DNA from: Phyllosticta citribraziliensis
Lineage: Eukaryota
NCBI RefSeq assembly: GCF_038025025.1
Contig: NW_027117339.1
Coordinates: forward strand, 558,001-622,000
Reading direction: 5' to 3'
Length of the DNA: 64,000 nucleotides
The notes beneath the pieces were generated by a model. It was given only the letters and a program-made list of their open reading frames with translations. It did no database searches and was not told the origin of the DNA. Both the position numbers and the translations under genes were made by a program. Positions 12,480-64,000 of this stretch are shown here, in pieces (the stretch's first letter is position 1; each line of letters starts with the position of its first letter).

Positions 12480-15400
12480 GTGAGAGTGTCGTACGGTGGT
12501 GGTAATACGTATGCAAGGGGGGCGTCGAATCGTTTGGGCGTTTGGACCTTTGGGTCCGTGGATAAACAAAGTAAAGTAAGGATTGGGACGGGTTGGGTTG
12601 GGTTGGAAGCGTTGGGGTGGTGGAGTTGAATTGTCTCCTGGTTTGGCTTGTCCTGCGCACATACTTTTGGCTTTTTTTCTTGTTTGTTTTTTGTGTGGAT
12701 GGATGGAGCTCCGCTGAGCTGTGGATACGTTGAGTTTTGCGTTGGTGCTTGCTTGCTTGCAACTTGCATGCGATAATACCAGGTTCACCACACGATACGG
12801 GACGACACTTTTCCGCGTCATCCCCATTGCACCACCACCACCACCACCACCTTACTTCCTTTTCACTCCATCTGTCTCCTTTTTCCGCCCCACACAGATA
12901 CTGCGTCGACACGCACTCTTTTCTCTCGTTTGTTCGTTTTACATCATGTTCCCCGTTCTCACATACCCACCATTCATTCGCTAGATACCACGCGCTTGTT
13001 TTCTTCTACTAGCCCGCTTTCCTTTCCTAGTTGCTTGTATCTTTTTCTGTTTTTTGGTGGTGATGGTGCCGATGGTGGTGCTCGTCGTCGTCGGGTAATG
13101 TAATGTGCTACCATAAGTCAGTGCTGTAGCAGCGGCCAATGGACACCAGTGCAATGGAATTTGTCGCTTTGTGCAAGTAAGCAAAAACAAAGCGAGACGC
13201 CAGAAGTCCGGAACGGCTGCGGTTCCGAGCCCGGAGTCCCTTGCTATGTCGACTTTTGTGCTTGGAGCTCTTGCTCTGTCTTACTGCCGCCGTGGGAGAG
13301 GAGGGAGGGCGGTGGTACTTATGCGACAAAGAGAGCGAGCGACAGAGAGGGACGGCCTTCACATGGCTGCGCGCCGACAGCGGACGTCTTCTTTGAGTTG
13401 GTGTCTTGCTTGTGCTGCTCGCGTCGTACTCGCACTGCTGCAGCCTTGCCGATCACGCGCTTACCGCATGCGCAGATGTCTCAGCCAAATGGCATCCGGG
13501 CTGGTATAAAAGACCAACTCCAACTCCTCAACGTCTTTCTCCATGACCAGGGCATCGTCTTTCCACTGAAGAAGGATGCATGGACAGTACACTGCGGTGC
13601 CGGAAAACCCTAGCCGAGATTGATCCATTGGGGTGGCTTTTCTGTACCGGTTAAAAACTTTCTTTGTCTGTTTTCGAATTAAGTAAGGGTTTTAAGAAGC
13701 CACCAGTGTCAGGGGGGGTGGTGATGGTTGATGCGATTTGATGGTGTTGCCTTTCTTTATTGTCGCAAGTGGTGGATGGATTGAGGGCTGTTCTGTGGGA
13801 GGGATGGGAGCGAGGAGAAAGAGAAAGGAAAGGAGTGTTTGGCGAGGTAAATGGAAGACACCCAAGCCGCAGACAGTACATTTGGTTTCCAATCGTCAAA
13901 GGCTTGGAATCTCCCGGATGCTCGAGCGCACCGCTTACAGTTTGCTTTCCTGGAGGGAGAGAGGCCACCTTTTATACTCCAAAAGCGACGTCTGTGCGTC
14001 AATCAGCCTGCCGCGTGGACTGAAGGGAGCCTCGCGCAGCTGCCTGGGCATGTGCTTCCAGCACGCGACGGCGCTCTTTCAGGTGCTTGCTGCAGAAGAT
14101 GAAGTTCGGACTACGGGGAGGAGTATTTAAGAAGAGGACCGAGGCGCGGCTTAACTCTCCTCAATCAGTCGGTGGGCAAGACTCCTCTCATAATTTGCTT
14201 CGGAACCATCGACTTTGGGAGGAGCTGTCTTCGTTACCTGAGGGATCGCTTGCTGGGTGTCCGTTCTTTCGCGCGGTCATCCGAATATTCACACACTTTC
14301 GCCGCTCTGTCTCCTCGCCATTCGACCATCTGTGGATGATGACGGTGACGAAGATGCTGAGTATTTTGACTTGGAAACGACGTTCGCCGCCATCGCTCTC
14401 TGGAAAGTTAGCAAATTCTGGAATCTGGGGGAGAAGTGAATGTGAGCGCCAGAGCAAAGGGCAAAGAGTCGTTTGGTTGGAAGACATTGACAAGGGCGTC
14501 CAGTCATTTTGTCGTTCATTCTTGACCAAGACACGACGATACCTTTGGATGCACTATACAGCGGAAGATGTGGGACTGAGGGCGGTATTTATACGTCGAA
14601 AGAGAGCCCCTGAATTGTACACGCGTCGTGTCTTGCGCCGTTCGTCGTGACTGTGTACGTCTTTGGCAGCTGATTTCTGAGCACATTGCTGGCGGCGTGC
14701 TACGCTTCTGGGGCTTGGACGTGGTGCGTGTATAAAAGAAGGCTGAGTTGCGCTGTGCGTTCGTGCTTCACTGACGAAGCCTGAGCCTGCAAGCTGTGCA
14801 TACGACAAAGAGGACTACTGCGGGGATCCTTCGTGTTGTTCCACTGCGATTGACCTTTGGGTTTTCGGTTCACTTCCTTCTGGCCCTCCACTCATCCTAA
14901 GAGCTCCTCTTCTTTCGAGCTATCGCCATTCACGAGCTACGTTAGAGTCAGCCATCACGATCTGCTGAAGCTGAACACCGCCCTCATCAAGGACTCAAAG
15001 GGAACATGATGCAAAAACCCCACGACCGTGAAAACAAAAACCAGACACAAAAGAGAAAGAAATCTCCAAAGTAGGATCCCTCTAGACTGGTCTGCCAAAA
15101 GCAACCTCCAGGAGTGGGGATTCACTGCACCTGCGGTCCCGTCAACCGTCTTCCTGAGCGGCGCGGACTTGATGTTGCTGTTTTGGGCAGAGAAGTCTGC
15201 GCTTTTATAACTAAGAAGAACGACTTGGGTTGGCGGTGATGTGAGGACGCACGTGACTGCTTCTTAGGCGGCTGTTCGGTCGGTATAAAGTGTATGTGGA
15301 AAACAACTTGGTGGACAAGATGAGGAGTCAACAGTCTGCGATTCAGCTTGGGCTCGACAAGTGGCAAGGACGCACTGTGGGTCGGAAACCCCGCGACGAA

Positions 15401-17751
15401 AGAAATTCCAGATGTTGGGAAAATGAGACTCGCATGGAGCGGCGTAATGTTGGAGCTCGCTGCCATTCAGTGTTGCCGTGCTTCATCATCACCATGGTCT
15501 AAATCTTTTCTGAGTTTGCACTCGGAATAGATCCACTCAGATTGAAGGATGAAAAGGGGAGAGAAAGAGCACCAAGTTTCTTTTCCGCCTTTGAGTATTC
15601 TTTCTCCACCCAAGATCCTTGGTTCACTTTGTGCTGCTGAGGAGGAGTTGAATGGTGTGGTTTTTATATCTGCAACTCGCGGGTCAGAAGCGTCAACGGC
15701 GTGTTTCCCCTGAGATTGGGGGAGTCCCGCGCGACTGGCGCTTTCAACATCTGGCTGCGTGCCTGAGAGGCTCTCGATTCGCTCGGGTGGCGCATGGAGG
15801 AGCTTTGGCCTCTGGGGACGCGGTATAAAGCAGAGACTTCGCAATCTTGCTCGTCTCTACTCAACTATAAAGGTCTTGAAGCTATGTGGAAAATGCCCAC
15901 GCAGAAGGCAAAATGTACTGCTGTGTGGTGGGGATTTTCTTCTGACGTTGGAATATCGGCCTGAAGCCTTCGACGATGGCGACTAGTTGATCGAAGTCTG
16001 GCGGCCGACATTTGCGACACTGTCTCGGTCTTCGATCGTTGTCTTTGCAGAGCGTTGAAGCTCTTTGCCATTTGAGGACGCGGTTCCTCATCACTTGTCC
16101 ACAAAGTTCGCGAACTTGCTGCCCTGCTCGGGCCAAGGAAGAAATACAACCAAATGAAGTAGGTACTCATAGTTTCCCGGCACTCGTTGATGGGAAATGA
16201 CTGGGAACCATGTCCTAGATCCAAGTCGGCTGATTACTGCCACGGAGGAGGGAAGTGCTTCAGCTTTATACCCTGAGGGAAAGATCTGTGCGGTTCAGGC
16301 TCCAACAAGCGACTTTCCTTGTGATTCGGCCCAGGTTTGGCAGCTGAAATGCTGCACATGTGATGGTGTCTTTCAAGCTCGTAAAGAGCCCTGTACTAGG
16401 AATCTGTGGATATAAAAGATGGTTCAGCAGCACTTCTCAATTTTCAATCTCATCGGAAGCCTGATCTCCCTGAAAGAATTTATGACAACCGAGAATTCAA
16501 CTGCTTTTTTGCGGTGTCTACCAGGAAGAAAGCACGCATTTTGTTGATGTCGGGGGATTTCGAAGTGGCTAGTGGCTTCCTTGCTTGAGATATTGTCTTT
16601 TCGAAAGCCTACATAGTCAGCAGATGATGGAAAGCGGCAGAATCGGCACCAGGAACAATTCCGCATTGTTTGGCAACACTGACCAGCAGCCCTTGTTTCC
16701 ACTTTCCTTGTCCTCAAGCGATTGCTCGAAGTTCGTCAGGTGTGCGAACAACCATCCAAGCCAAAGAGTGTTCATGATAGATGCTAGTAGGCACAACAAA
16801 GTGCGTTGAAGTGTGCTGTCTCTTTGCGCAGAGCTTTCCTGGATGAGGATTTCGAGTCGAAGAACGTACTTTCGCAAGTTGATATACTACGCTCAGGGCG
16901 CTAGTCAAGATCGTGATAGGAAGAGTTGGTGTCAATGCGTTTCGTGTGACGGCTGACATTTCCAGTCCACATGGTCGACCTTGCATGAAGAGGCACGAGG
17001 TGGTCAAGTTTGCACGTTAATGCTTCCTGAGCACGAGGATACCCGGTTCACGTGCGAATGCTTCGAACGTGCTGAAGGTTTCCACCGATGACTGATAGTA
17101 CTGTGCCCAATCGATGCTACGTAGAGCCGACTGTCGCTTCTTGAGAGAAAGAACTGGAAGGAAGAGCAAACTAAATGACCAAGAAAGAAAAGCCAAGTGC
17201 TCACCAGCGACGATGCTGGGTTGTTATGTTGGCTCTGGAGCTGACTGCGTTTTCGCATCGTGTTGGTCAAGTCTGCGCGTGTACCGCCAGAAGTGCGGTC
17301 TGGTTGCAATTGAAGAGCTGCGTTTCGGAGAAAGCTTTTGGTGGGTAGAGTCGTCCTGCGGGATAAAACTACAGCCGTCCAAGTGGAGCAGGTAGAGGGA
17401 CGGCAAATAGTGTGAACAGCAGGTAGGCGGATCGAGGGTGGTGATGGTCCTGGGCGACGTCAGCATGTCAGCGGTGCTTCAGATTCTGCGAGTGCAAAGG
17501 CGGAACGGACCTTGAAGTATGTCAGTGCAGGAATAACACTGACCGTACTAGTACCAGACAACAGACACGCGACGCGCGCCCGGGCGAAGGATGCCAAGTG
17601 AGGTCGGCCAAAAAGATGCTCTGATTCAATCGTGTGGTCAAGAGACATTGGCAAAACAGGCAGTTGGAAATGGAAGTGCTATGTTAGAAGTCACAGAACA
17701 TCAAATTACCAAGTCACAGAGCAAAGGCAGCAAAAGAAGTAAGAATTGTAT

Positions 17752-52637: not shown

Positions 52638-54779
52638 ATGCCTCGCACTCGAGGCCAGAGGCCCATTTCGACGCCTGCCGCAACCCCATCCAACAACAGA
52701 CTATCCACAATATCCACGCGCTCGCAATCCGGCATTCAACGATTCGGTCGCATTGGCAAGGCCGTCCCCGAAGAGTCGCCCTCAAAAAAGAGAAAGGCAA
52801 TCGTACACAGTGACGGCGATGAGGAGGAGGAGGGAGAGTCCACCATTGTGGAGGCGGCCGAGGACGTCGACGAGACTCCACGGCTCAAAAGGTCGCGGAA
52901 GAGGCTGCTGTTGAACCGTCCTCTTCCCCGTCCGCCTTCCGAGGATGACACTCCTACGAGGGGCACCAGCGGCCTTCTCTCTGCGCTGGACCTGTCGCAG
53001 ACGCCGCCCATGATGCAGCCTCGTTTCTCGCCTTCCAAGGAGACGATGAGAACGGCCGACACCATCAAGACCGTGGACACGCCCAATTCGCCCACCGACA
53101 CGCCTGCCACAAGTCCTTGCTGCTCAGAGCCACCAAGCTCCCGCCCAAGCATGCAGGACAGGAAGAGCGACGAGCTGCCTCAGGGCTTGCTGGATCTCAT
53201 TGATTTGCATTCATCATTTCTCGGCGCATTATCATTCTACTACGCCCACAACGGCATCTCAGCACCCGTCGACATTCGCATGCTTATACCGGCAATTACT
53301 ACAAAATGGGGCAAGCGCAAGGTCACGGTCGAAGATATCAGGCGCTCGCTCGGCGTCATGCAGAGCAGCGCCTTCACAGCGCATCCCCACCCCGCACTCA
53401 AGGCCCGCACATTCTTGCTCTCGGACTATGGCCACGGGAAAATCTGTCTGGAACAGCAGGAGAGCAGAAAGGCGCGCAGCAGACGCTCGAGCACCGTCAT
53501 TCCGCAAGTCCTCGACGAGAATGCTCTCAATGCTCTCTTCTCGATAGAGCTGTCGCAACGGTGGGACGAGTACAGGAGAAAGATAACGCCAAACTCGAAG
53601 AGTCCGCAGTCCGTCTCGTACTTTGTCAGCCAGATGCCTCTTACTGAGATTACGACATGTCCTTCACTCGCCAAGATGGGCCCGTTCCTGGCAAAGGGTC
53701 AACAGCGCTTGGAAGATTTCAAGGCGGGTGCCCTCAAGCGCCAGGCCTCCATGATGAACTTTTCAAGGCCGTTGGGTGCGCAGACTCCAGCACCGGCTGA
53801 GACGGATCCGACGCCAGAGAGCTCAGAGAGCCCATCTGAGACTGAGGAGGTGGAAGAAAAGGGCATTCTCAAGACTCCCCGGCCAGCCACATCAAGCGCA
53901 GTTCCTGAGACCCCAGCGGCTCCAACAACTGCCACCAAGAATTCCCGCTCATTATTCCGCTCGAAATCCATCTCAAATCTGTCGGCGAAGGCTACATCTG
54001 TGACGAAAAAGTCGACGCTCATGACCAAAAAGTCGTTCTCGTCTCTCTCCTCCATGGCCAAGTCCTCAGACACAACCTCATTTCCACCTCCGGTGCCCTC
54101 GCTCCCCAAAACCAAAACTCTCCCCTCCACTCAGCCCGCCGACCCCCAAACCCCTGCTCCCAACCGCTCGCACCACTCGCGCGGCGCCTCCCTCCTCGAA
54201 CGCATCCGCGCCAAACAAACCGCCGCCGCCAACGCTCCTCCAGGCCCAACACCCGAAGAGCGCGCGCGAATCGCCGCCCTCCACCGCGCCGAAGACGTCC
54301 TCGCCACCCTCAGCCTGATGGCAAGCACCGCCTCCGTCGTCACCGGCTCATACTACTCCGCCGCCGCGCTCGCCATGACCGCAGCGTTGCCCTCGCCCTC
54401 GCCCTCAACGCCCTCTTCCCCTTCCGTGTCCACGTCAACGCGCGATTCGGCCGCCCTCTCGGCCGCCTCGACGCGCGCCTCCACTGCCGCGTCGTCGACC
54501 GGCTCCGGCGCCCCGCTGCTCGGCAACGGCTCGTCCCCGCAGCGCGTCTCGTTCCCCCTGCCGCGCCTCGTCCGCGACGTGCAGGCTAGCAGCCGCAGCC
54601 CCGTGGGCGCGGACGAGGTCAAGCGGTGCGTCCAGGTGCTCGCCGACGAGGTGGCCAAGGGGTACGTCGCGCTTGTCAAGCTCGGCGCGACTGAGGTCGT
54701 CGTCGTGGATTTGGCGAAGAGGGTAGGGAGTGCGGAGGTCAGGCGGAGAGTTGGTGTTGCGCTGGGTGGAAAGATTTAG
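52638..54779 (+). CDS. CDT1: DNA replication licensing factor Cdt1 (filamentous-fungal type), single exon
   Basis: ELPQGLLDLIDLHSSFL.AL..YYAHNG..AP.D, WGKRKVTVEDIRR, LSDYGHGKICLE, SLLERIRAKQ, C-terminal winged-helix-like segment; many S/T-P CDK sites. First ATG of the frame is at 52638. Confidence 0.82.
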   Translation: MPRTRGQRPISTPAATPSNNRLSTISTRSQSGIQRFGRIGKAVPEESPSKKRKAIVHSDGDEEEEGESTIVEAAEDVDETPRLKRSRKRLLLNRPLPRPPSEDDTPTRGTSGLLSALDLSQTPPMMQPRFSPSKETMRTADTIKTVDTPNSPTDTPATSPCCSEPPSSRPSMQDRKSDELPQGLLDLIDLHSSFLGALSFYYAHNGISAPVDIRMLIPAITTKWGKRKVTVEDIRRSLGVMQSSAFTAHPHPALKARTFLLSDYGHGKICLEQQESRKARSRRSSTVIPQVLDENALNALFSIELSQRWDEYRRKITPNSKSPQSVSYFVSQMPLTEITTCPSLAKMGPFLAKGQQRLEDFKAGALKRQASMMNFSRPLGAQTPAPAETDPTPESSESPSETEEVEEKGILKTPRPATSSAVPETPAAPTTATKNSRSLFRSKSISNLSAKATSVTKKSTLMTKKSFSSLSSMAKSSDTTSFPPPVPSLPKTKTLPSTQPADPQTPAPNRSHHSRGASLLERIRAKQTAAANAPPGPTPEERARIAALHRAEDVLATLSLMASTASVVTGSYYSAAALAMTAALPSPSPSTPSSPSVSTSTRDSAALSAASTRASTAASSTGSGAPLLGNGSSPQRVSFPLPRLVRDVQASSRSPVGADEVKRCVQVLADEVAKGYVALVKLGATEVVVVDLAKRVGSAEVRRRVGVALGGKI

Positions 54780-55608
54780 CGTTGTTGCTGGTTTGGGCAT
54801 TTTGCTTCTGATGGTTTCTGCTGGACAGACTGGATGGTTGGATTCGAAATTTTGGGTGCGATGAGAGCGCTGTGGTTGGTTGGTTGCTTGAGCGCTTGGT
54901 TGTTCGTTGGATTCGGGTGGTACGACTTGATGCTACGACGTTGGATACCCACCGCACCGCACCCCACCCCGCGCCTTCGATGGTCATGATCACGAACGAT
55001 ATGATGATAGTGTGTTGTACAGTACAGTATGGGACAGGACGGTCACGACAAATACGCTTGCTTGCTCTATACTAAACTACCTATGCATTTGACGAATACG
55101 TGTGCATGCTTGGATGAGGTACATTTGAGGACTCTCCCTCGTCCTCGCTTTTCCGCCACACCTCCTCACTCTCCCCCTGAGAAGGCACGCGTGGCCCCCG
55201 TGTGCCGCACCTCCTTCCTGCCGAGTGCCGCCTCGGCTCTCGTGGCCGTCTTTCTTTCGACATTAGTCATTCGGTTGCCTTGTTTTTGGGCTGTCTGAGC
55301 GCCGCATATTGCAAAGAGCATGGGAGTTGTTGGATTTTGGACCGCTCCCGTCTATCTTGTGTGCTGTTCGACAGGGGCGAATGGGAGAATCTACGAGACG
55401 CTTTGATCCGACGGTTAGGGCTTGGAGGTTTTGAGGGCCAGCCTGCGTCACCGAAGTCCTCTCGAAGAATAGACCGCGAGATCTAAATGTCACCCGTACA
55501 CCAAGAGTCACAGTCGGATGCAGTTAAGTCTTGAAAACACAACATTGCGACGGAAGGCGGTTTTGGCCGTTAGGGGTGTCACGAGGATTCGCCCCGTAAG
55601 TCACAGCC

Positions 55609-58251
55609 CTATCGCTTGTTCATCGCTTCGAGTGCTCCCTTTCTTTCCTTCTCCGCCTTCTTTGCTTCTTCATCCTTTGCCGCCAGGATATTCTTGACTT
55701 TACTCAGATGAGTTTTGGCCCTCCATCCTTTAGGCTTGCGGCCGGAGGCCTTCATTGATATGCTCAAGTCCTCCTTGTGCTTGAAGTCGTCCAGGATGTA
55801 GTAGAGCAGCCGAGTATTGTACATTGTGAGAGACTCTTTCTCTTCGTCATGAATGAAACCGATCTCCTTTCCGACCTTCCCTAGGTACTCCACATACGTG
55901 AAGCCGAGGCGGTAGTAGTCGCGCTCCACGTCGGCGCAGGCGAGCTTTGGCAGGCACCTCTTCAGTATGCCGACGAATTTGGGCCATGACAACGGCCGTC
56001 TCACTCTGTTTGGCGGCGCTTGCTGCGGCGCTTGCACCTCTGCACCATATTCTTCTAGCTGCCTCGCAAAAAGGTCAAGACCTACGTCTTCTTCACACTC
56101 CATGGCTATCTCCCACAATGTCTGCACTGGCTTGGGTACTTGTATCTTTGTTCCCGAGAAGTCGTATTGACCATCTCCAGTCCTTGGAAGTCGAGTCTCG
56201 ACGAGCTGCAACAATGCCGTGGCGTTGGCCGGAATGACGGCAGGGAACCATTCTGGACATTGATCCAAGATGGCTTGGTCTTGTCGAGCTTTGGGGTCCG
56301 ACTCTCCATCCATGACGTTGAGCGCCATAATGAGATGGACCAGGACAAAGACGGATAGGTGCCCGTTCATAATTTCGATATCCGCCTTGTAGTCCACAAG
56401 TCGCCGCCGCAGCGCCAACTCGCCGACATATAGAGGCTGGTTCTTGAGGTAGAATTGCCCTCCTTCCAGACCTAGACCCGCAAACCAGTTCACTTCCATC
56501 CGCTTCACGGGGAAATGAGGAGCCTTGTCGATCTTGGACAGCTGATCGTCTTCTGGAATCGGGACAGTCCGTCGTGATCTACCTTCGGCGACGTGGTAAG
56601 TCTCGTTCCCCTCATTGTCGACGGCCCACTCGAATTTGGCGGAGAAAATTGTCTCTCCGGATTGTCTGAGACAGTTCTTCACCACCCGCTCCTGAGTGAA
56701 GCCCCAATTATCCTCGTATATTCCCTTCCGTGATTTACTGCTATCGTGATAATCTCGATAGACCATCCTATTTTTAAAATAAGGCTCTTCTCCTGCCTCG
56801 TCGTTCACCTCCTTATGTGTCTGTCTATACAGCAATTCTTGTTTATTTATCATATTTTCGTCAAAAAGTTGACTGATTTTGACCAGGAGTTGAACGGTGT
56901 AGCTGACACCCATGAACACATCAGAATTGCCCTCAACAACGTGGTTCAAGCAGACCGAGAAATAATCTGTTCCAAGATAACTGGGCCTAGGACGGTCCGG
57001 TTTCTGTGGGTCGAGTATGGGCTCCCCACCTGACGGGTCGACAATGGCACTGTACGAATACAGCAGCCTAATGTCATTGAGGTACTTCCAAGTCAGTTGG
57101 ATCTGTTCGTCGTAAGCCGTCTTCAATTTTTTCCGAGACTCTAGTTGGTTTTTGTCCAGCTTTCTCTTTTTCCCCTGACCCGGCTTTGACTGGGGCTTGT
57201 TGAAACGGTCCCCCGGATACACGTGTCCCAAGTCCACTGGGTAGCCCGGGACCGGAACCTTTTTCTTTTGCGAGTCCCACAACTTTGAAATCGCCCGGAA
57301 GTTGTTCAATACGGGAATGGTTGGATAGTGGAGCAGCTCCAAGTGGTCCTTGAGTGTGGTCATGGAGCTGATCTTCTGATCTTCTTGGTCCAGTAGAAGC
57401 AATCCGCGCACGTCCGCCAGAAAAGTGGGTGGATATTCATCATTTTCGACATTGAGAGCCGCAACACACCTCTCAGATTGCCATTCATGGAGAATTTCTA
57501 GCAGTTTCTCATCCTCTCCTGTCTCTTCCATCATTTGTTCGAAGAATTCTCTTTCCATCTTGAGCGATCTTGTTGCAGCACCGCGGGCTATCAGCGACGC
57601 TTGAATCAGTCCCATTCCCGTCTTCCTGTATTGTTTCCATGCATCCATGACCTCGAACGTCATGCTCCTCATATCTATCATCAGCCGGTAGAGCTTCATT
57701 GCGAAGTAATGCCTTGGATCCCACAACATGCGCAGGATATAGTAAATGACGGCGATGAAAAATTCGTGGTTGCGGTTTGATTCAAGGTGTTTTTGATATT
57801 GCTCAAAGGTCCCAAAATCCCTGCGTGTAAAGGTCGAAAAGTGTCGATTGGCTTTCTTTCGTAAATCAATGCATCCCTCCAACGATGCTTGCTCCTGTCG
57901 AGGGAGTGTGACGCCCTGAAGGTTGAGAAGATCTGCTTGCTGTGCGATCTTCAGGACACTCTCCCCGAAGAAAGGTGATTCCAGTTCTCTGCTTTCTTGA
58001 ATCTCTACAAAGCCGAGTCTTTCATTCAAAGATCTCCTGTATTTCCGGAGCTTTTCTACCTCTCTGTTCCATGATCTGGGGCTGGTAGGGGTCATTGCCT
58101 CTCTCCAGCCGTGTTTCTTCGCGTTGGTCTCGATCCAGTTGGTAAATCGCTTCGTGCGATTTGTGTAATTTGCTCTGATTGTATCCAGCTCCCTACTTTC
58201 GAGCCGATCAGTATCTTCTTGGCTGATCTGCCTTGACGACGTGTCCGCCAT
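55609..58251 (-). CDS. DUF6604-like protein, paralog A (880 aa, intronless)
   Basis: Long ORF; N-terminal Y....K.F..W....AK..GW, LEGCIDLRK, SNRNHEFFI.V...IL, W.QYR....L; clear homology to the two neighbouring ORFs. Family name is from motif memory. Confidence 0.8.
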   Translation of the reverse strand: MADTSSRQISQEDTDRLESRELDTIRANYTNRTKRFTNWIETNAKKHGWREAMTPTSPRSWNREVEKLRKYRRSLNERLGFVEIQESRELESPFFGESVLKIAQQADLLNLQGVTLPRQEQASLEGCIDLRKKANRHFSTFTRRDFGTFEQYQKHLESNRNHEFFIAVIYYILRMLWDPRHYFAMKLYRLMIDMRSMTFEVMDAWKQYRKTGMGLIQASLIARGAATRSLKMEREFFEQMMEETGEDEKLLEILHEWQSERCVAALNVENDEYPPTFLADVRGLLLLDQEDQKISSMTTLKDHLELLHYPTIPVLNNFRAISKLWDSQKKKVPVPGYPVDLGHVYPGDRFNKPQSKPGQGKKRKLDKNQLESRKKLKTAYDEQIQLTWKYLNDIRLLYSYSAIVDPSGGEPILDPQKPDRPRPSYLGTDYFSVCLNHVVEGNSDVFMGVSYTVQLLVKISQLFDENMINKQELLYRQTHKEVNDEAGEEPYFKNRMVYRDYHDSSKSRKGIYEDNWGFTQERVVKNCLRQSGETIFSAKFEWAVDNEGNETYHVAEGRSRRTVPIPEDDQLSKIDKAPHFPVKRMEVNWFAGLGLEGGQFYLKNQPLYVGELALRRRLVDYKADIEIMNGHLSVFVLVHLIMALNVMDGESDPKARQDQAILDQCPEWFPAVIPANATALLQLVETRLPRTGDGQYDFSGTKIQVPKPVQTLWEIAMECEEDVGLDLFARQLEEYGAEVQAPQQAPPNRVRRPLSWPKFVGILKRCLPKLACADVERDYYRLGFTYVEYLGKVGKEIGFIHDEEKESLTMYNTRLLYYILDDFKHKEDLSISMKASGRKPKGWRAKTHLSKVKNILAAKDEEAKKAEKERKGALEAMNKR

Positions 58252-59658
58252 TGCGTATTATGATGTAAGTGATACAGCAAAAAGGAGTCAGGATAGTTGG
58301 AAAACGTGCCAGAAAGACTCGAACCACCAGGCGAATGAGGCACTACAAATGGGGAATGGTCTTTGGATCAATCTCGGGCGAACAAAGGGCACTCGAGAGG
58401 GGTTTCTTTAAGCATCATTTATCTGTGGAATAGAAAGTCCTGTTATCACAATACCAGTTTCGTGATCGGGAACTTCAAGAGACTGTTTGATCAAGTTTTC
58501 AATAGGAACTTTTTTCCGGCGTTCGTATGCCCCTGGGCAGGAGGAATAAGTGTCTTTGTTCAGCGATGTCCGTCTTCGGCTACTTCGAAGCTTTCAAGCA
58601 GATTTGGGAACACAAAGCCTGCGTTCGCAACAGGTTGAGTTATCGACGGTCAACAAAGACCTTCCTTCGCCGAGAGAGGCTCCGAGTAAACCCGTGCACA
58701 GCTGCATTTGGCCCACACAAGTGTGCGGGCAGTCACTTCAGCACTCCTGTGGCTTCTCCGTCTGCCACTCTCAATCAACCATTGAGATTTCACTTCTTTG
58801 GCCGCGACTGTCTCGCCAGGTCATGAGTCGTGCGTTTGATGTTCAGATGCGGTCGCCTCTGTTGCACAACCATACGGGCTTCCGTCTACGGCTCCGGACG
58901 GCTCGCCCTTCGACGTCACACATCATCGTTTACACCTCCCGCCGGAGCCAACAGTTTGCGCTCTAGTATCCAGACCCTTCGCCTTGGATAGCCGCCCATT
59001 CTGCGACCTGCGACCAAGCCTATCATGTTAGACAGCAAACATCGTTCTTGTCTAGCTCCCTTGCACAGTATGGAGTCCCGTCATGGATTTACAGCTGCGT
59101 TTTTGCGGGAAGATCGATCCCTCGACGAAAGCGGAAAAGGCCCTTTGTCCTCCAAGCGGCGATTTGCTCCGCTCAATCAACAGACCGTAACTTGTCATTG
59201 TCGCACGATACAAAGGCCTCCTGTATCTCAGCGATGGATTCAAGGGCCTCATTTCCCTGAACGCGAATTTGTGCGAAACACAGTAAATGACGCGAAAATT
59301 CTAGTGCAGCACACTTCGTGGACAAGGAGCGCATTCGTACGCTTCGAACCGGCAACTCACAGTTGCATTCGAGCGACCTGGTGCCGGAGGCCTTCAGGGG
59401 TTTTGAGCATCTATATGGGATGGTAGCAGCTAGTACCCATCCTCAAGCTCACTGGGATGGTTCTTGTGTGCCTCGCGACTTTCGCCGTCAAAGGGCTGTA
59501 CACGCCGCAAACGTACAGTACAATGACTGGAAAAGTTCTGGAGAGCTCTTTGTGCTTTTGCGGACCATTAAACCATAGCCTCCCGCTGACAATTTCTCGC
59601 CCGTATTTTTCCAACTATCTTGACTGGCCACTACTGCACACTTTTACGTGGATTCGAA

Positions 59659-62475
59659 ATGTCATCGCCCGGACAGCTACACAAACTGTCAGCACATGAG
59701 ATTGACTCCAAGTACAAAAAATACAAGGACTTCAATGAAGAGTTTGAACGATGGCTGGTGGAAAAGGCGAAAAGCAAAGGTTGGCAAGGCCGAAACGAAG
59801 GAGTGGACAGATTCTCTGAGCAAGGCGAACTCCTTCGGGACAAAAGTATCAAGCTTCCCCCAGGAATCCAAACTTCATTGGAGGAATGTATCAAGCTCCG
59901 TCAGCAGTTAATTCAGCACTACGAGGCTCTTTCACCGAGAGAGATCAAAGACTCAAAAAGTGCACAATCATGGAAACGCCACGTTGAGAAGAACGAGGGC
60001 CACGACAAGTTCAACCACGTTCTACAATACATTCTGAGTATTTTGGGAGTGAACACATCCGATTCTGACAAGGTGCGGCGGAGAAGGATCGCCATAGAGA
60101 TGCGCAAGACCTTGAGGGAAATGCAAAAGTTGACAGTGGATGTCATCCGAGCTTGGGAACAGTATCGTGTGAACAGACTCAGCTTGTCCCAGGTTACACT
60201 GGTAACCCATGCGGCAGTTGAAGAATCACAGAGCATCGAAAAAAAGTTTTACGACCAATGGCCTCCGAATTCAGAGGACTATCAATTTGTTCAAGACTTC
60301 TATACCGATTACGATCCGAAACTTGTAGACTTGGGGGATAACAGTCTAAAAACGAGTGCAAAAACGACTTTGGACGATGATTTGACCGGGCTGCTCAACC
60401 AGGATCGTTACTACCCTCAGTCGCAAGAATTCGAAACTTCCATGGATATTCTACATTGGCCTACAATCTACGTACTTTCAAACTTCCAAGGCATGATGGA
60501 GCAGTGGAAAACATACCCGGTACCAGGGCATCCGCTTTGCCTTGAGCATGTCTTTTACGAAGGAAAGAAACATCGTAGTAAAGGTCCTGGAAAATACGAG
60601 ACCTACACCGACACCGAGGCAGTACCGGACGTGCGTGGACTAAAGGACAACAACGAACGCAAGATAAAGCGAAAGAAACACGAGAATTTGAAAGCTCAGT
60701 ATAAAGACCAGATCAAAAGTACCGTGGAACATCTCAACGAGATTCTATATCTGCATACGTTCCCAGTCGACACAGATACACAGACAGCAACTTTTGGTGT
60801 TTATCGCGAATGCCAAGAAGAGAAGGAAGGAGAATCCGATCCAGAGGAAAAGAAAGAGGTTTTCTTACCGAAAGATATATTCTCCAAGGCCCTGAGCGAC
60901 GTTGTCCAAGATCGTGGGAAGATTTCCATGAGCACGAGCTTCACAATCCAGCTTTTGGTCAAAATACATCATCTCTTTGAAAAAGTCCCGAGTGAAGCGA
61001 CAGAATCCAAAGCCTTGTCATTCCGCGAAGAAGTACACAATGAGGCTACGAAATCCTCCGATGACGACCCTGAGCGGACAAAGATCAGGCTTGAAAATGA
61101 GTCTTTACTGTCGAGCATATATGCTTCATGTCAGAATGGCCACGCGCTCTGGATGAAGAAGCAAGATGTGCCTGGTTTGACCAACAATTTCCAATTTCAG
61201 ATGGACGACAACTCCAAGAGCGTCGTCGAGATTGGTATTAACGGAGATGAAGTCAGCAAAACCACGGTTCCAGCGAGCCCTCGGATACATGTGGTCAATC
61301 CGTACATGATTGATGATTGGAGACACGATGTTACCTGTCACGCAAAAACAGCGGAATACTACTCCAACAAACAACCCTTGTACGCTGGGACCTTGGATTT
61401 GGTGAGAAGACTTGCCGAATATCGCGCTGATATCGCATCGGCAAATAGCACCCTCAGTATATTCGCCCTGACCCATCTCAAGGAAGTGCCCGAAGCCCCA
61501 CCAGAGGCACACTATCATATCTCTCCAGTATGCGAAGCCGTGATGCGACAGCATCATAGTTGGTTCCCACAAGAATTCCAGGCCCGAAGCGCAAGCGACA
61601 TCATTGATCTGATCAAGGATAAAGTTCAAAAAACCGGTAAAGCGTCTGCACCCCTGACAAACCAGTTCGTAAATCTAATGGGGGTCCCTCCAGGTGTGAC
61701 AGTAAATTACGACATGTACGATACCAAAGAAGACGCCATGATGAAGCCAACTAAGCCCCTGGAAGCTTTGTGGGAAATCTTTGCGCTCGATCATCCTGAA
61801 ACAAGGATCTCGACATTCTTGAAAGAGCTTCGAAAGCCCCCTCGCAGAAGCACTAGGATAAAAAACAAGGGGAAGCAAAGGGCTTATTCAACACCAGTGA
61901 AAACTGTATTGCAAACGGGATCCAGCAGCAGTAAAACGTGGTGGGAAAGTTGCGGCCAAGATCTAGTAAACTCGTGGCCAGCACTTCCTTGCTGCGACAC
62001 TGAATGCGACTTTTTCGGGACTTCCGACGTCTGCATGAAAGCTCTTGACCAGTTAGGCCATTCCGAAGGTCTCGTTCGGTTCAAAGGCGAAGGCAGGAAA
62101 AGCTTCAGCTGTCGTATACTCCACTCTCTTTTACAGGTGTGGAAGTCAAGCGAGACATCAGTCATCCAGGAGGAAGTCATCCAGGAGGAAGAACCCACCC
62201 AGGAGGAAGAACCCATCCAGGAGCAAGAGAACAACAATGGAGAGGGGTCATTTGTGCAGGCGGACGCAGACGAAATCAGCAGGGATATGGGAACCAAGTA
62301 TGAGGATGCAGAAGCTGCAAAAGACGCAAGGAGACGGGAGATAAACAAACAAAGAAAGAAAAAAAACAAGGTGAACCGAAAACGAAGGGCAGCCGAAGCC
62401 GAAGCCGAAGCCGAAGCCGAAGCCAAGTCCAACACGGAGTCCTTGGCTCGCAGCGACAAGAGGAGAAAATTGTGA
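59659..62475 (+). CDS. DUF6604-like protein, paralog B (~938 aa, intronless)
   Basis: YKKYKDFNEEFERWLVEKAKSKGW, LEECIKLRQ, NEGHDKFNHVLQYIL, WEQYRVNRLSL, QPLYAG..LVRRLAEY. First ATG of the frame is at 59659. Confidence 0.8.
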   Translation: MSSPGQLHKLSAHEIDSKYKKYKDFNEEFERWLVEKAKSKGWQGRNEGVDRFSEQGELLRDKSIKLPPGIQTSLEECIKLRQQLIQHYEALSPREIKDSKSAQSWKRHVEKNEGHDKFNHVLQYILSILGVNTSDSDKVRRRRIAIEMRKTLREMQKLTVDVIRAWEQYRVNRLSLSQVTLVTHAAVEESQSIEKKFYDQWPPNSEDYQFVQDFYTDYDPKLVDLGDNSLKTSAKTTLDDDLTGLLNQDRYYPQSQEFETSMDILHWPTIYVLSNFQGMMEQWKTYPVPGHPLCLEHVFYEGKKHRSKGPGKYETYTDTEAVPDVRGLKDNNERKIKRKKHENLKAQYKDQIKSTVEHLNEILYLHTFPVDTDTQTATFGVYRECQEEKEGESDPEEKKEVFLPKDIFSKALSDVVQDRGKISMSTSFTIQLLVKIHHLFEKVPSEATESKALSFREEVHNEATKSSDDDPERTKIRLENESLLSSIYASCQNGHALWMKKQDVPGLTNNFQFQMDDNSKSVVEIGINGDEVSKTTVPASPRIHVVNPYMIDDWRHDVTCHAKTAEYYSNKQPLYAGTLDLVRRLAEYRADIASANSTLSIFALTHLKEVPEAPPEAHYHISPVCEAVMRQHHSWFPQEFQARSASDIIDLIKDKVQKTGKASAPLTNQFVNLMGVPPGVTVNYDMYDTKEDAMMKPTKPLEALWEIFALDHPETRISTFLKELRKPPRRSTRIKNKGKQRAYSTPVKTVLQTGSSSSKTWWESCGQDLVNSWPALPCCDTECDFFGTSDVCMKALDQLGHSEGLVRFKGEGRKSFSCRILHSLLQVWKSSETSVIQEEVIQEEEPTQEEEPIQEQENNNGEGSFVQADADEISRDMGTKYEDAEAAKDARRREINKQRKKKNKVNRKRRAAEAEAEAEAEAKSNTESLARSDKRRKL
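62161..62424 (+). repeat. In-frame coding repeats in the tail of paralog B: 15-18 nt ..CCAGGAGGAA units x4 and (GCCGAA)5
   Basis: VIQEE VIQEE EPTQEE EPIQE at 62161-62223; (AE)n at 62392-62424. Confidence 0.85.
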
Positions 62476-62751
62476 AAGGAGCGGCAATGTGTGTTTTGGT
62501 AGTATGGATAGCAGGCCTTTGCGCCGCAGGCGGAGCGACGACGTCGACGATTGGGGGTTGTCTTTCAAACGCTGGGTAATTTTCCGCGCGTTCTCTAGAA
62601 AATATAGCTACTACAATCCCCGGTTTCTCAAGGTTGTGCGTCTTCTTGCACGAATTTCACGCGTGCGTCTCATCTGATGAAGCAAAGTGACCTTGGTCTA
62701 CAGATACTTAATTTCCTTCCAAAATACACAAAGGTCTGAACACAATTACGA

Positions 62752-64000
62752 TTACGTTTTCTTTCCCTCCATCTTCATCAGTTCGTTCTCTCGCTTAATT
62801 TCCCGCTCGACCTCACGTTCCTCCTTCTGTTTGAGCAAGGATTGCACCTTGATCAGGTGAGTTGAATTCCTCCACTGATTCCGTCTTGCTCCTGGCGCTG
62901 CTGCTTGGGTACTGTAGTCATCCAACACCGTAAAAAGTAACCGGGAGTGGTAATGCTTGCTGTTCTCATCAGGAAGCTGTTTGCAATCAATGTCCTTACC
63001 AAGTTGCTGAAGGTATCCCTCGTACTCCACTGAAAGATCATAGAAGCTGCGCTCAATATCACCGCAAACGAGTGTTGGAAGACCTTTCTTCAGCGCGTCA
63101 ATGATCTGTTCCAAGGATAATTCCATATCTTCTTGCTGTTGCGAATTCTCCTTCTCTTTGTCTTCCAGTGCTTGTATCAACTTCTTCCTCTTGTTCTTCA
63201 CTGTGTTGTTGCGAATGTCTTCCCTGCACCGCCACTCCTCGTGATGCCTTCGTAGCTGGCTTGCGAGCAGAGAGAAGGTCGGTATGGAGGAATCGTCCTC
63301 GCTGCTCCCCAAGATTATATGAGACAACGTCTTCACAGGCACGGGCGGGTCCAAGATGCTCTCACGATCGTGGTACTGGAAATCATTTCCGACCTTTTGG
63401 ACACGTGAGTTGACCGTGTTCATAAAGGCTGTTCCATCCATTGCAACATCGCAGGGGAACCAATTCGGCTGGTGTTGACAAAGTATCGCATCTTGCCTCG
63501 CTTCTTTGATCTCCGGGTACCAGACATGGAGCGCTTGAACCAAGTGGGAAAAGACAAAAATGCTGAAGTTCTCGTTCGCGAAGTTGAGTTCGGCCGCGTA
63601 GTCCACAAGTCTTCGCTTCAACCCTGCAATGCCGACGTAAATGGGCTGTAATATGTCATAAGACTGACGCTCCGCTGGAACTGTATACCAGCTCACGTCG
63701 ATCGGTTGTCCAAAGACGCGATTCGATTCCACTCGACGGAGCCCAGACTCGTTGTAAATCCGGACGGTCTTTCGCTCTCCTTTTCCCCTGACAAATTGAA
63801 CTTCGTCCTCTGCTTTGTCATTGCTTGTCCACTCATACTTGTAGAGAAAGGTCGGCAATCTGTCCTTTTTCTTTAGCATTGCGGCTTTCATTCTAGTATG
63901 GTAGGATTTCAATTCACATTCGGCGTGAACACTCGCCATCTGCTTTCTATCACAGTGTTGCGTCCTTCGGTCGTCTCGCAAATCCCAGTCTTTTTCGTTG
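62752..64000 (-). CDS. DUF6604-like protein, paralog C (C-terminal part; 5' end beyond window)
   Basis: Frame is open to the window edge; QPIYVG..LKRRLVDY, SIFVFSHL, ARQD, NWFP, LPTLVCGDIER, RLLFTVLDDY and WRNSTHLIKV align with paralog A. Confidence 0.8.
   Translation of the reverse strand, partial: NEKDWDLRDDRRTQHCDRKQMASVHAECELKSYHTRMKAAMLKKKDRLPTFLYKYEWTSNDKAEDEVQFVRGKGERKTVRIYNESGLRRVESNRVFGQPIDVSWYTVPAERQSYDILQPIYVGIAGLKRRLVDYAAELNFANENFSIFVFSHLVQALHVWYPEIKEARQDAILCQHQPNWFPCDVAMDGTAFMNTVNSRVQKVGNDFQYHDRESILDPPVPVKTLSHIILGSSEDDSSIPTFSLLASQLRRHHEEWRCREDIRNNTVKNKRKKLIQALEDKEKENSQQQEDMELSLEQIIDALKKGLPTLVCGDIERSFYDLSVEYEGYLQQLGKDIDCKQLPDENSKHYHSRLLFTVLDDYSTQAAAPGARRNQWRNSTHLIKVQSLLKQKEEREVEREIKRENELMKMEGKKT

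What the first reader, a model, noticed from the sequence alone, without database searches (positions are those of the whole stretch)
55609..64000. Cluster of at least three highly diverged DUF6604-like paralogs in alternating orientation: candidate undescribed conflict/recognition locus
Seen: three adjacent large ORFs with no introns needed in the visible sequence (A-, B+, C-) share motifs. QP[LI]Y[VA]G...L.RRL.[DE]Y.A[DE] reads QPLYVGELALRRRLVDYKAD in A, QPLYAGTLDLVRRLAEYRAD in B and QPIYVGIAGLKRRLVDYAAE in C. They also share S[VI]F...HL, WFP, P.L.C.D.E and R[LI]L...L. A and B additionally share the N-terminal domain, LH[YW]PTI.VL.NF and PVPG[YH]P..L.HV. Between motifs they are very divergent, and the region is visibly more AT-rich than CDT1 next door. 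Knowledge (from memory): the N-terminus resembles DUF6604, a fungal family of unknown function. Inference: old local duplications kept intact with rapid divergence are typical of allorecognition, meiotic-drive or defence loci, so this may be an uncharacterised system.
Basis: partly seen in the sequence, partly recalled or inferred. Interest (0 to 1): 0.75.

Follow-up and report, generated by a model that had tools for sequence, protein, structure and literature searches.

The report
Fast-evolving fungal DUF6604 gene trio
Three very different copies of a fungal gene of unknown function sit side by side in a citrus-dwelling fungus, are repeatedly broken or swapped in its relatives, and carry promoter signals typical of mating-stage genes, which makes them a plausible but unproven candidate for a new sexual-stage conflict system.

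Summary
Observation confirmed. The genome is a Phyllosticta (P. citribraziliensis by named matches). Exactly three intact paralogs (A 880 aa, B 938, C 904; 25-33% identical) lie between CDT1 and an emp24 gene. All pass the Pfam DUF6604 cut-off, are homologous to canonical members over their whole length, and form one divergent clade found only in Phyllosticta. The locus is syntenic across the genus, but copies are often broken, and they diverge far faster than flanking genes. The B-slot gene of the sister species is only about 41% identical (A 83%, C 84%) and groups with more distant species. New here: the upstream regions hold 11 HMG-box core sites (ACAAAG; 1.6 expected; top of 2,080 hexamers) and a shared 16-nt box, suggesting mating-stage control; an RNA contig shows a frameshifting 58-nt splice inside C. 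AlphaFold gives a confident, mostly helical model with no known-fold match. Against the het-locus reading: no divergent alleles within any species sampled, no known incompatibility domain, no Starship. Best reading: a sexual-cycle-regulated accessory cluster under birth-and-death turnover; a spore-killer or suppressor system is possible (about 25%) but unshown.

The parts
52638..54779 (+). CDT1, conserved left flank (not part of the cluster)
   Evidence: Pfam CDT1_C E 9e-17; orthologs carry the accession number next to a cluster gene in P. citricarpa, paracitricarpa, citriasiana and capitalensis
55609..58251 (-). Gene A, 880 aa, divergent DUF6604-family protein; the copy that is full length in every concentrica-side species seen
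   Evidence: AlphaFold model pLDDT 85.1, pTM 0.87
58252..59658 (.). Shared divergent promoter region of A and B with 7 copies of the HMG-box core ACAAAG/CTTTGT
   Evidence: 0 of 745 background windows of this length reach 7
58286..58304 (-). 19-nt box ending 34 nt upstream of A's ATG; 18 of 19 identical to the box before B
58380..58387 (-). Position-matched HMG-box-like site CTTTGTTC at -136 of A
59548..59555 (+). Position-matched HMG-box-like site CTTTGTGC at -111 of B (C has the same 8-mer at -127, outside the window)
59607..59625 (+). 19-nt box ending 33 nt upstream of B's ATG; a related 16-mer lies before C at G000:C2:623490-623505
59659..62475 (+). Gene B, 938 aa, divergent DUF6604-family protein with an acidic then basic low-complexity tail; its genealogy disagrees with the species tree
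61906..62136 (+). In-frame 231-nt GT..AG stretch that another annotation of the same protein removes as an intron; it would delete the conserved P.L.C.D.E motif; no RNA support seen
62752..64000 (-). Gene C, C-terminal 415 of 904 aa; continues to G000:C2:623466; followed by an emp24/p24 gene
63860..63917 (-). 58-nt GT..AG intron inside C's reading frame (exitron); splicing shifts the frame and ends the protein at 571 aa, before the QP.YVG motif
   Evidence: RNA contig of run X3 skips it; frame computed; DNA contig of X1 holds it

Best explanation
A Phyllosticta-specific, fast-evolving subfamily of DUF6604 that expanded to three copies between CDT1 and an emp24 gene before P. capitalensis split from the other citrus species, and has since gone through birth-and-death turnover. 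Shown: family, synteny (from accession order), speed, frequent breakage, discordant B slot, promoter motif excess, a truncating splice in C. Inferred: MATA-type HMG-box factors switch the genes on during mating or fruiting-body development; they stay low in other conditions, C partly through unproductive splicing. The products are soluble, probably nuclear, mostly helical proteins with no enzyme fold detected, and most likely act as binding scaffolds through an N-terminal three-helix bundle that holds the family's most invariant residues (Y29, W39, R131, H162, F165 in A). One copy (A) does a job still under selection; B and C are dispensable variants that come and go.
For: Whole-length homology to canonical DUF6604: hhalign probability 99.9%, 647 columns. 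One clade, support 100; all 11 non-canonical hits of the 1.8-billion-protein search are Phyllosticta by name. Kimura distances to the sister species: A 0.19, C 0.18, BTB flank 0.07; to P. citricarpa A 0.76, CDT1 0.11; to P. capitalensis C 1.35, CDT1 0.16. ACAAAG 11 times in 2,524 bp, 1.6 expected, Bonferroni 0.002, 0 of 2,000 shuffles; this core is the HMG-box site of PMC3730723 and the FMF1 motif of PMC11708053 (passages). This genome's STE3 and MAT1-1-1 genes each have one perfect (A/G)ACAAAGAA close upstream, as C does at -284. No signal-peptide-like N-terminus; basic KR clusters near residues 337-374 in all three.
Against: No sexual-stage RNA was seen; promoter control rests on motif counts against a 157-kb background that is largely coding. 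One background promoter on C18 has 6 sites and 10 of 757 windows (1.3%) match C's count of 4. No ortholog DNA was available, so dN/dS is unmeasured and relaxed and positive selection are not told apart. Breakage in relatives is read from gene models, not DNA. The scaffold role rests on a missing fold match, and residues 180-880 were barely tested. A has one moderately hydrophobic 19-residue window (1.65).
Confidence: 0.45

Rival explanations
1. A selfish sexual-stage system: one or more copies kill or disable spores lacking them, and paralogs or the truncated splice form act as antidote or suppressor. Slot B records replacement of one driver lineage by another; copies decay once fixed.
For: Probable mating-stage promoter control. 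B of the sister species is 41% identical in three aligned blocks (41, 48, 41%) where A is 72-85% and C 83-87%; it groups with the P. citricarpa-group B at 100/98, and the species-tree grouping is rejected at p-AU 0.016. The non-coding DNA just after B is still alike in the two species (19 of 28 residues when read in a frame). Many broken copies. Two possible products of C. wtf drivers likewise show meiotic promoter motifs, pseudogenes and syntenic genes that do not group together (PMC9562144 passages).
Against: One fixed locus for the whole genus, with no dispersed copies of this subfamily and no sequence homogenisation between copies. No nuclease, kinase or multi-pass membrane signature. Alleles within species near-identical. 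The B test uses fragmentary models, and long branches can mislead it. Reciprocal loss from an ancestral tandem pair explains slot B without drive.
Confidence: 0.25
2. A vegetative allorecognition (het-type) locus: unlike alleles at slot B trigger cell death after hyphal fusion.
For: Deeply divergent B lineages with a sharp 3' boundary resemble the trans-species het alleles of PMC11138114 (passages). In mixed run X2 depth drops from about 190-285 in the left flank to 15-30 over B's body, and only a depth-15 contig spans B.
Against: No two divergent alleles were seen inside one species: A and C are identical in two assemblies of this species and B differs only by an annotated intron; listed pieces of X1 and X8 in the genes have 0 differences; P. 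capitalensis alleles differ at 9-14 of about 1,000 and 2-6 of up to 874 residues. No HET, NLR, patatin or gasdermin domain. The promoter signal points to sex, not fusion.
Confidence: 0.1
3. A defence family that recognises mycovirus, transposon or microbial products, diverging in an arms race.
For: Fast divergence and turnover; canonical members of this genome lie near AT-rich contig ends and two more are remnants; 1 of 55 scanned members carries C-terminal ankyrin repeats.
Against: No repeat, sensor or effector domain in the cluster proteins; no structural match in PDB or viral libraries; low variation within species.
Confidence: 0.1
4. Near-neutral decay: redundant duplicates drifting under relaxed selection; promoter motifs and the splice are by-products.
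For: Frequent breakage in relatives; a cryptic truncating intron in C; low GC3 of 0.53-0.59.
Against: Three frames of about 900 codons remain open here at 25-33% identity with 148 or so invariant columns; A is full length in five species; short upstream boxes survive although the proteins are saturated.
Confidence: 0.1

Closest known systems
DUF6604 (Pfam PF20253), canonical ascomycete members
   Same: N-terminal domain over the cut-off; colinear over the whole length; same run of long helices in both AlphaFold models; no other domain.
   Different: Own long-branch clade, 13-21% identity to canonical rows; lacks the RLKGKARK and NxFxxL loops and has a short beta insertion near 539-586; clustered between housekeeping genes, whereas this genome's two intact canonical genes are single and near contig ends, with 0-1 ACAAAG upstream.
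wtf meiotic drivers of fission yeasts (PMC9562144, passages)
   Same: Fast-evolving family, many pseudogenes, a shared sexual-stage promoter motif, syntenic genes that do not group by locus, more than one transcript form.
   Different: No homology; three copies at one locus rather than dozens dispersed; soluble helical protein; no gene-conversion homogenisation; killing not shown.
Spok spore killers of Podospora (PMC6660238, passages)
   Same: Large intracellular ascomycete proteins that diversify by duplication within lineages.
   Different: Spok has a predicted PD-(D/E)XK nuclease and a kinase domain and rides a mobile block; none of these was detected here.
het/vic allorecognition genes (PMC4540973 abstract; PMC11138114 passages)
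   Same: One slot with deeply divergent gene lineages across sister species and a narrow boundary.
   Different: No balanced divergent alleles seen within a species, no HET/NLR/patatin domain, no incompatibility test.

Membership tests
DUF6604 family (PF20253) | N-terminal domain above the gathering score of 27 bits | tested here: met
   A 43.1, B 37.9, C 47.9
DUF6604 family (PF20253) | Homology over the rest of the roughly 850-residue protein | tested here: met
   hhalign 99.9%, 647 columns, positions 18-841; canonical profile hits A at 1e-41, B 8e-40, C 4e-25
Canonical DUF6604 subfamily | RLKGKARK basic loop, NxFxxL motif and AHLYNA..W motif | tested here: not met
   Columns conserved in 70-96% of 96 canonical rows are absent or changed in 6 of 6 cluster proteins shown; filed as a separate subfamily
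het/vic allorecognition loci | Divergent alleles segregating within a species | tested here: not met
   few isolates, and some species are clonal or selfing, so the test is weak
het/vic allorecognition loci | Trans-species polymorphism | tested here: inconclusive
   B genealogy disagrees with the species tree, but no species was seen holding two lineages; run X2 is a mixture of unknown strains
het/vic allorecognition loci | HET, NLR, patatin, HeLo or gasdermin domain | tested here: not met
   Only DUF6604 passes in Pfam; the fold searches cannot exclude a remote fold
het/vic allorecognition loci | Cell death when unlike alleles are co-expressed | not testable with these tools
   Needs transformation or pairing tests
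Spok spore killers | PD-(D/E)XK nuclease plus kinase domain | tested here: not met
   No such Pfam hit; model almost all helical
Killer meiotic drivers (wtf-like logic) | Sexual-stage expression from a dedicated promoter motif | tested here: inconclusive
   HMG-box core enriched upstream; no sexual-stage RNA seen
Killer meiotic drivers (wtf-like logic) | Poison and antidote products | tested here: inconclusive
   C has a spliced, truncating transcript and an open unspliced frame; activities unknown
Killer meiotic drivers (wtf-like logic) | Biased transmission or spore death in heterozygous crosses | not testable with these tools
   Needs crosses
Starship cargo | DUF3435 captain at the element's edge | tested here: inconclusive
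   No match in G000, but nothing rang in the controls either; the genes right of C are emp24, BTB and HAD-like
Starship cargo | Position that varies between strains or species | tested here: not met
   Same CDT1 neighbour in four other species and same BTB neighbour in a fifth, by accession order

The most novel reading that the evidence does not exclude
The trio is a new class of ascomycete sexual-stage killer and suppressor genes, built on a helical fold unlike any solved structure: HMG-box mating factors switch it on, a frameshifting exitron sets the ratio of full-length to truncated product, and competing driver lineages replace one another at slot B. It would give DUF6604 its first function and point to a spore-killer system in Dothideomycetes.
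Probability: 0.22. Interest if true: 0.82.

Novelty: new variant of a known kind. Interest (0 to 1): 0.55.

Why it matters
DUF6604 is a widespread ascomycete family with no paper in the library searched and no solved relative. This locus gives the first concrete handles: a confident structural model, a short list of invariant residues, a testable regulator (mating-type or Ste11-like HMG-box factors), a natural splice switch, and a slot where gene lineages were swapped between sister species. It sits in an endophyte with a selfing relative that can be studied, so the sexual-stage and drive ideas can be tested directly. If it is a driver, it bears on fertility and species barriers in a genus that includes citrus pathogens. 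If not, it is a well-documented case of birth-and-death in a sex-related family.

Tried and rejected
More copies: genome searches with A and B gave 3 places each; 36 kb right of the window holds ordinary genes at GC 0.48-0.66. RIP as the cause of low GC: composite index -0.65 to -0.74 in A, B and C, no signature. Starship captain: no DUF3435 match, uninformative control. Known fold: Foldseek PDB 0 matches at E<=0.001 for both models, viral library 0 for A; VIA-align best Z 8.2 (A; rmsd 3.6, 94 aligned) and 7.1 (canonical; rmsd 4.2, 97 aligned), nearly all on residues 1-215; several MIT-domain rows at Z 6-7.4 are within the noise for helical bundles and are a lead only. The C-terminal 700 residues were not folded alone, so a known fold there is not excluded. 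PDB sequence search with the family profile: best E 0.13. ESM Atlas with A: nothing at 0.9 or above; with a canonical member: only DUF6604 clusters. Rfam over 54500-64000: 0. Neighbourhoods in metagenomes: 0 loci from two scans. Expression: no RNA holder listed as such; X3 gave a trace over A and no cover over B, which is no evidence either way. Upstream similarity by shuffle test was poorly calibrated: unrelated pairs with the BTB upstream also scored p<=0.002, so I rely on the position-matched motifs and the hexamer count instead. HMG-gene loci as positive control: 2 of 7 loci had a consensus-type site upstream, and gene starts were uncertain. Orthology of the P. capitalensis copies: position 1 is C-like (support 84/95) and rejected as A (p-AU 0.023); positions 2 and 3 unresolved. 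Earlier scan notes: none bore on this locus. No complex prediction was run, since no binding claim is made.
Full report
Setting. The window is G000:C2:558001-622000 of a 31.35-Mb fungal genome in 22 contigs. The closest named relatives of gene A are from Phyllosticta citrichinensis (83%), P. citricarpa (52%) and P. capitalensis (31%), and a protein identical to B apart from one 77-residue gap is named from P. citribraziliensis. I therefore take the genome to be P. citribraziliensis, an endophyte whose closest relative is P. citrichinaensis, with P. capitalensis the most distant (PMC9073689, passages; bioRxiv 2020.04.14.040725, passages).

A (55609-58251, minus, 880 aa), B (59659-62475, plus, 938 aa) and C (minus, 904 aa, starting 1,466 nt beyond the window) are open frames. 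All quoted motifs are present, and C also has the two said to be shared only by A and B. Identity to A is 25% and 33%. The cluster has exactly three genes: CDT1 is on the left; emp24, BTB and HAD-like genes are on the right; searches with A and B find 3 places each. GC is 0.49 against 0.62 for CDT1, with GC3 0.53-0.59 and no RIP signature.

Family. All three pass the DUF6604 cut-off. Homology to canonical members runs the whole length: hhalign 99.9%, 647 columns. A profile of six cluster proteins against 1.84 billion representatives gave 169 hits at E<=0.001, of which 150 were listed. Eleven are cluster-type and all eleven are named from Phyllosticta. Of the rest I scanned 53, plus this genome's two canonical genes: 55 of 55 carry DUF6604 and 1 of 55 adds ankyrin repeats. 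Of 8 looked up, 4 had species names, all other ascomycetes. In a 40-row tree the 13 cluster rows form one clade, support 100, on a long stem; the tool warns that long branches meet there. The cluster proteins keep Y29, W39, P117, R131, H162, F165, W205, D429 and H639 (A numbering) but lack the canonical RLKGKARK and NxFxxL loops. This genome also has two intact canonical genes near AT-rich contig ends (C9, C18) and two remnants on C11. Searches for 'DUF6604', 'PF20253', 'IPR046539' (recalled), 'DUF 6604' and a recalled annotation phrase found 0 papers; subscription papers and supplements were not searched.

Structure. AlphaFold2 gave mean pLDDT 85.1, pTM 0.87 for A (121-row alignment) and 85.6, 0.88 for the canonical C18 protein (114 rows). 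Both are almost all helix; A has a small beta insertion at 539-586. Neither matches PDB by Foldseek at E<=0.001. VIA-align finds only generic three-helix-bundle matches to the first 180-215 residues, best Z 8.2 and 7.1; MIT domains recur (MITD1 Z 7.4, rmsd 2.3, 72 aligned) but this is within noise. The rest was barely tested. N-termini are hydrophilic, so these are not secreted effectors; each has KR clusters at about 337-374, which I read, from general knowledge, as possible nuclear signals.

Synteny and turnover. Gene order was inferred from consecutive accession numbers, and breakage from public gene models, not DNA. P. citricarpa, paracitricarpa and citriasiana: CDT1, then full-length A (884 or 810 aa; 4 distinct sequences); in citricarpa and paracitricarpa then a B fragment (188-389 aa); no C was among the hits. 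P. citrichinensis: A (876 aa, one isolate), B as two pieces (459 + 233 aa, other isolate), C as 636 aa in one isolate and 864 aa with an out-of-frame stretch in the other, then BTB two numbers further. P. capitalensis: CDT1, a C-like gene (874 aa in 4 of 6 records, C-terminal pieces in 2 of 6), a second copy (937-1,048 aa in 6 of 6) and a third seen only as fragments. So the cluster predates the deepest split, its order has changed, and copies are often lost. Distances exceed those of the flanks by about 3 to 8 times. The canonical genes also lack a 90%-identical partner outside this species, so speed may be a family trait.

Slot B. In three blocks, B of the sister species is 41, 48 and 41% identical to ours, where A is 85, 80 and 72% and C is 87, 86 and 83%. 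It groups with the paracitricarpa B fragment at 100/98, and forcing it with our B is rejected at p-AU 0.016 (12 rows, one B fragment left out as a duplicate; the grouping tested is the species tree). Yet the non-coding DNA right after B still matches (19 of 28 residues in a read-through model). Our B is thus a lineage older than the species split. An ancient allele, introgression, or reciprocal loss from a tandem pair would all give this. Run X2, a mixture of relatives, has contigs about 95-97% identical over A, B and C, but depth is 190-285 in the flank, 70-120 over A, 15-30 over B's body and 67 over C; its short-sided joints are not reliable enough to call deletions.

Against balancing selection. 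A and C are identical in two assemblies of this species. Listed pieces of runs X1 (4 in the genes) and X8 (2 in A) show 0 differences (the table is cut). P. capitalensis alleles differ by 9-14 residues in about 1,000 (position 2) and 2-6 (position 1), against 2-4 of 722 for CDT1; P. citricarpa and paracitricarpa A are identical over 810 residues. het genes are defined by divergent allele groups within populations (PMC4540973, abstract; PMC11138114, passages). Samples are few and partly selfing or clonal, so this lowers the het reading without excluding it.

Promoters (new). A repeat search showed a 19-nt inverted pair in the A-B gap. It is one box, 18 of 19 identical, 33-34 nt before each ATG; chance expectation in the window is 0.03. 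A 16-nt consensus with C's version occurs 3 times in the genome, once before each gene (the pattern was built from them, so this shows only that no other gene has it). CTTTGT[TG]C lies at -136, -111 and -127. Over both upstream regions (2,524 bp) ACAAAG occurs 11 times against 1.6 expected (2.4 GC-matched). It ranks first of 2,080 hexamers, Bonferroni 0.002; 0 of 2,000 shuffles reach 11; 0 of 745 windows reach the A-B count of 7, though 1.3% of 757 reach C's 4. This is the HMG-box core bound by the Ste11 ortholog in Podospora, consensus (A/G)ACAAAGAA (PMC3730723, passages), and the FMF1 motif TCTTTGTY enriched in sexually induced Fusarium genes (PMC11708053, passages). In G000 the STE3 receptor and MAT1-1-1 genes each have one perfect site close upstream, as does C; CDT1 and BTB have no core site in 1 kb, and the canonical genes 0-1. 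Mating-stage control is an inference from these counts.

Splicing (new). Run X3 is RNA, since it skips GT..AG introns in neighbouring genes, and is identical to the window. One 3,685-nt contig covers C down to 62689 and skips 63860-63917, a 58-nt GT..AG intron on C's strand; the depth of that bin (36.4) fits the spliced contig alone. Splicing shifts the frame and stops the protein at 571 aa, before the QP.YVG motif. The skipped stretch is coding in the paralogs and in the sister species, so it is an exitron. Contigs drop minor forms, so unspliced RNA may also exist, and the part of the transcript beyond the window was not seen. It may be a regulatory off-switch, a second product, or decay.

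How it most likely works. Shown: an old, syntenic, fast-turning three-gene cluster of a Phyllosticta-only DUF6604 subfamily, with shared upstream elements rich in HMG-box cores. Inferred: mating factors switch it on in the sexual cycle, where soluble helical proteins bind partners through the conserved N-terminal bundle; A is retained and B and C are exchangeable (0.45). A killer and suppressor system has the same regulatory logic and explains slot B and the two forms of C, by analogy with wtf (PMC9562144, passages), but lacks dispersal, homogenisation and any known toxic domain such as Spok's (PMC6660238, passages) (0.25). het-type recognition, defence and neutral decay get 0.1 each.

Verdict. 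Interest 0.55; 0.82 if it proves to be a driver (probability about 0.22).

Noticed in passing
L019:2051-4742 (G000:C18:16051-18742): The densest ACAAAG cluster in the 157-kb background (6 sites in 380 bp) lies in a divergent promoter between a gene with no Pfam match and a probable nucleoside hydrolase (label recalled), about 2 kb from the canonical DUF6604 gene on C18; the orphan may be another mating-regulated gene.
   Followed up: partly
L022:5135-5957 and L023:5012-5215 (G000:C11): Two broken remnants of canonical DUF6604 genes, N-terminal part only, one with stops and a frame change; a fifth weak piece on C7.
   Followed up: partly
L017:1-5200 (G000:C9 start) and L019-L020 (G000:C18): Both intact canonical DUF6604 genes lie within 5 and 22 kb of AT-rich contig ends (GC 0.29 and 0.17 in the end bins), and carry consecutive-range accessions on one long contig in another assembly of the species.
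   Followed up: no
window:12123-13670: Six ACAAAG cores within 1.6 kb, in and after the 3' end of an 840-codon frame, ahead of an AT-richer stretch (14000-17000) with no long frame.
   Followed up: partly
window:49026-55045: One RNA contig of run X3 spans the GH71 glucanase gene and CDT1 without a break; overlapping UTRs or read-through.
   Followed up: no
window:62153-62228 and 62395-62426: B's tail has short tandem repeats (15-18-nt units coding EEVIQ/EEPTQ, and GCCGAA units coding AEAEAE) that could vary in length between strains.
   Followed up: no
window:52638-54779: CDT1 here is 713 aa with long Ser/Ala-rich insertions, against about 550 aa in Botryosphaeriaceae; the exact 713-aa sequence is not in the protein collection, so annotated models differ.
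   Followed up: no
L002:5467-6583 (G000:C2:623467-624583): C's RNA contig is 3,685 nt, about 950 nt longer than the spliced coding part and 3' end require, implying a long 5' leader reaching close to the emp24 gene; not seen directly.
   Followed up: no
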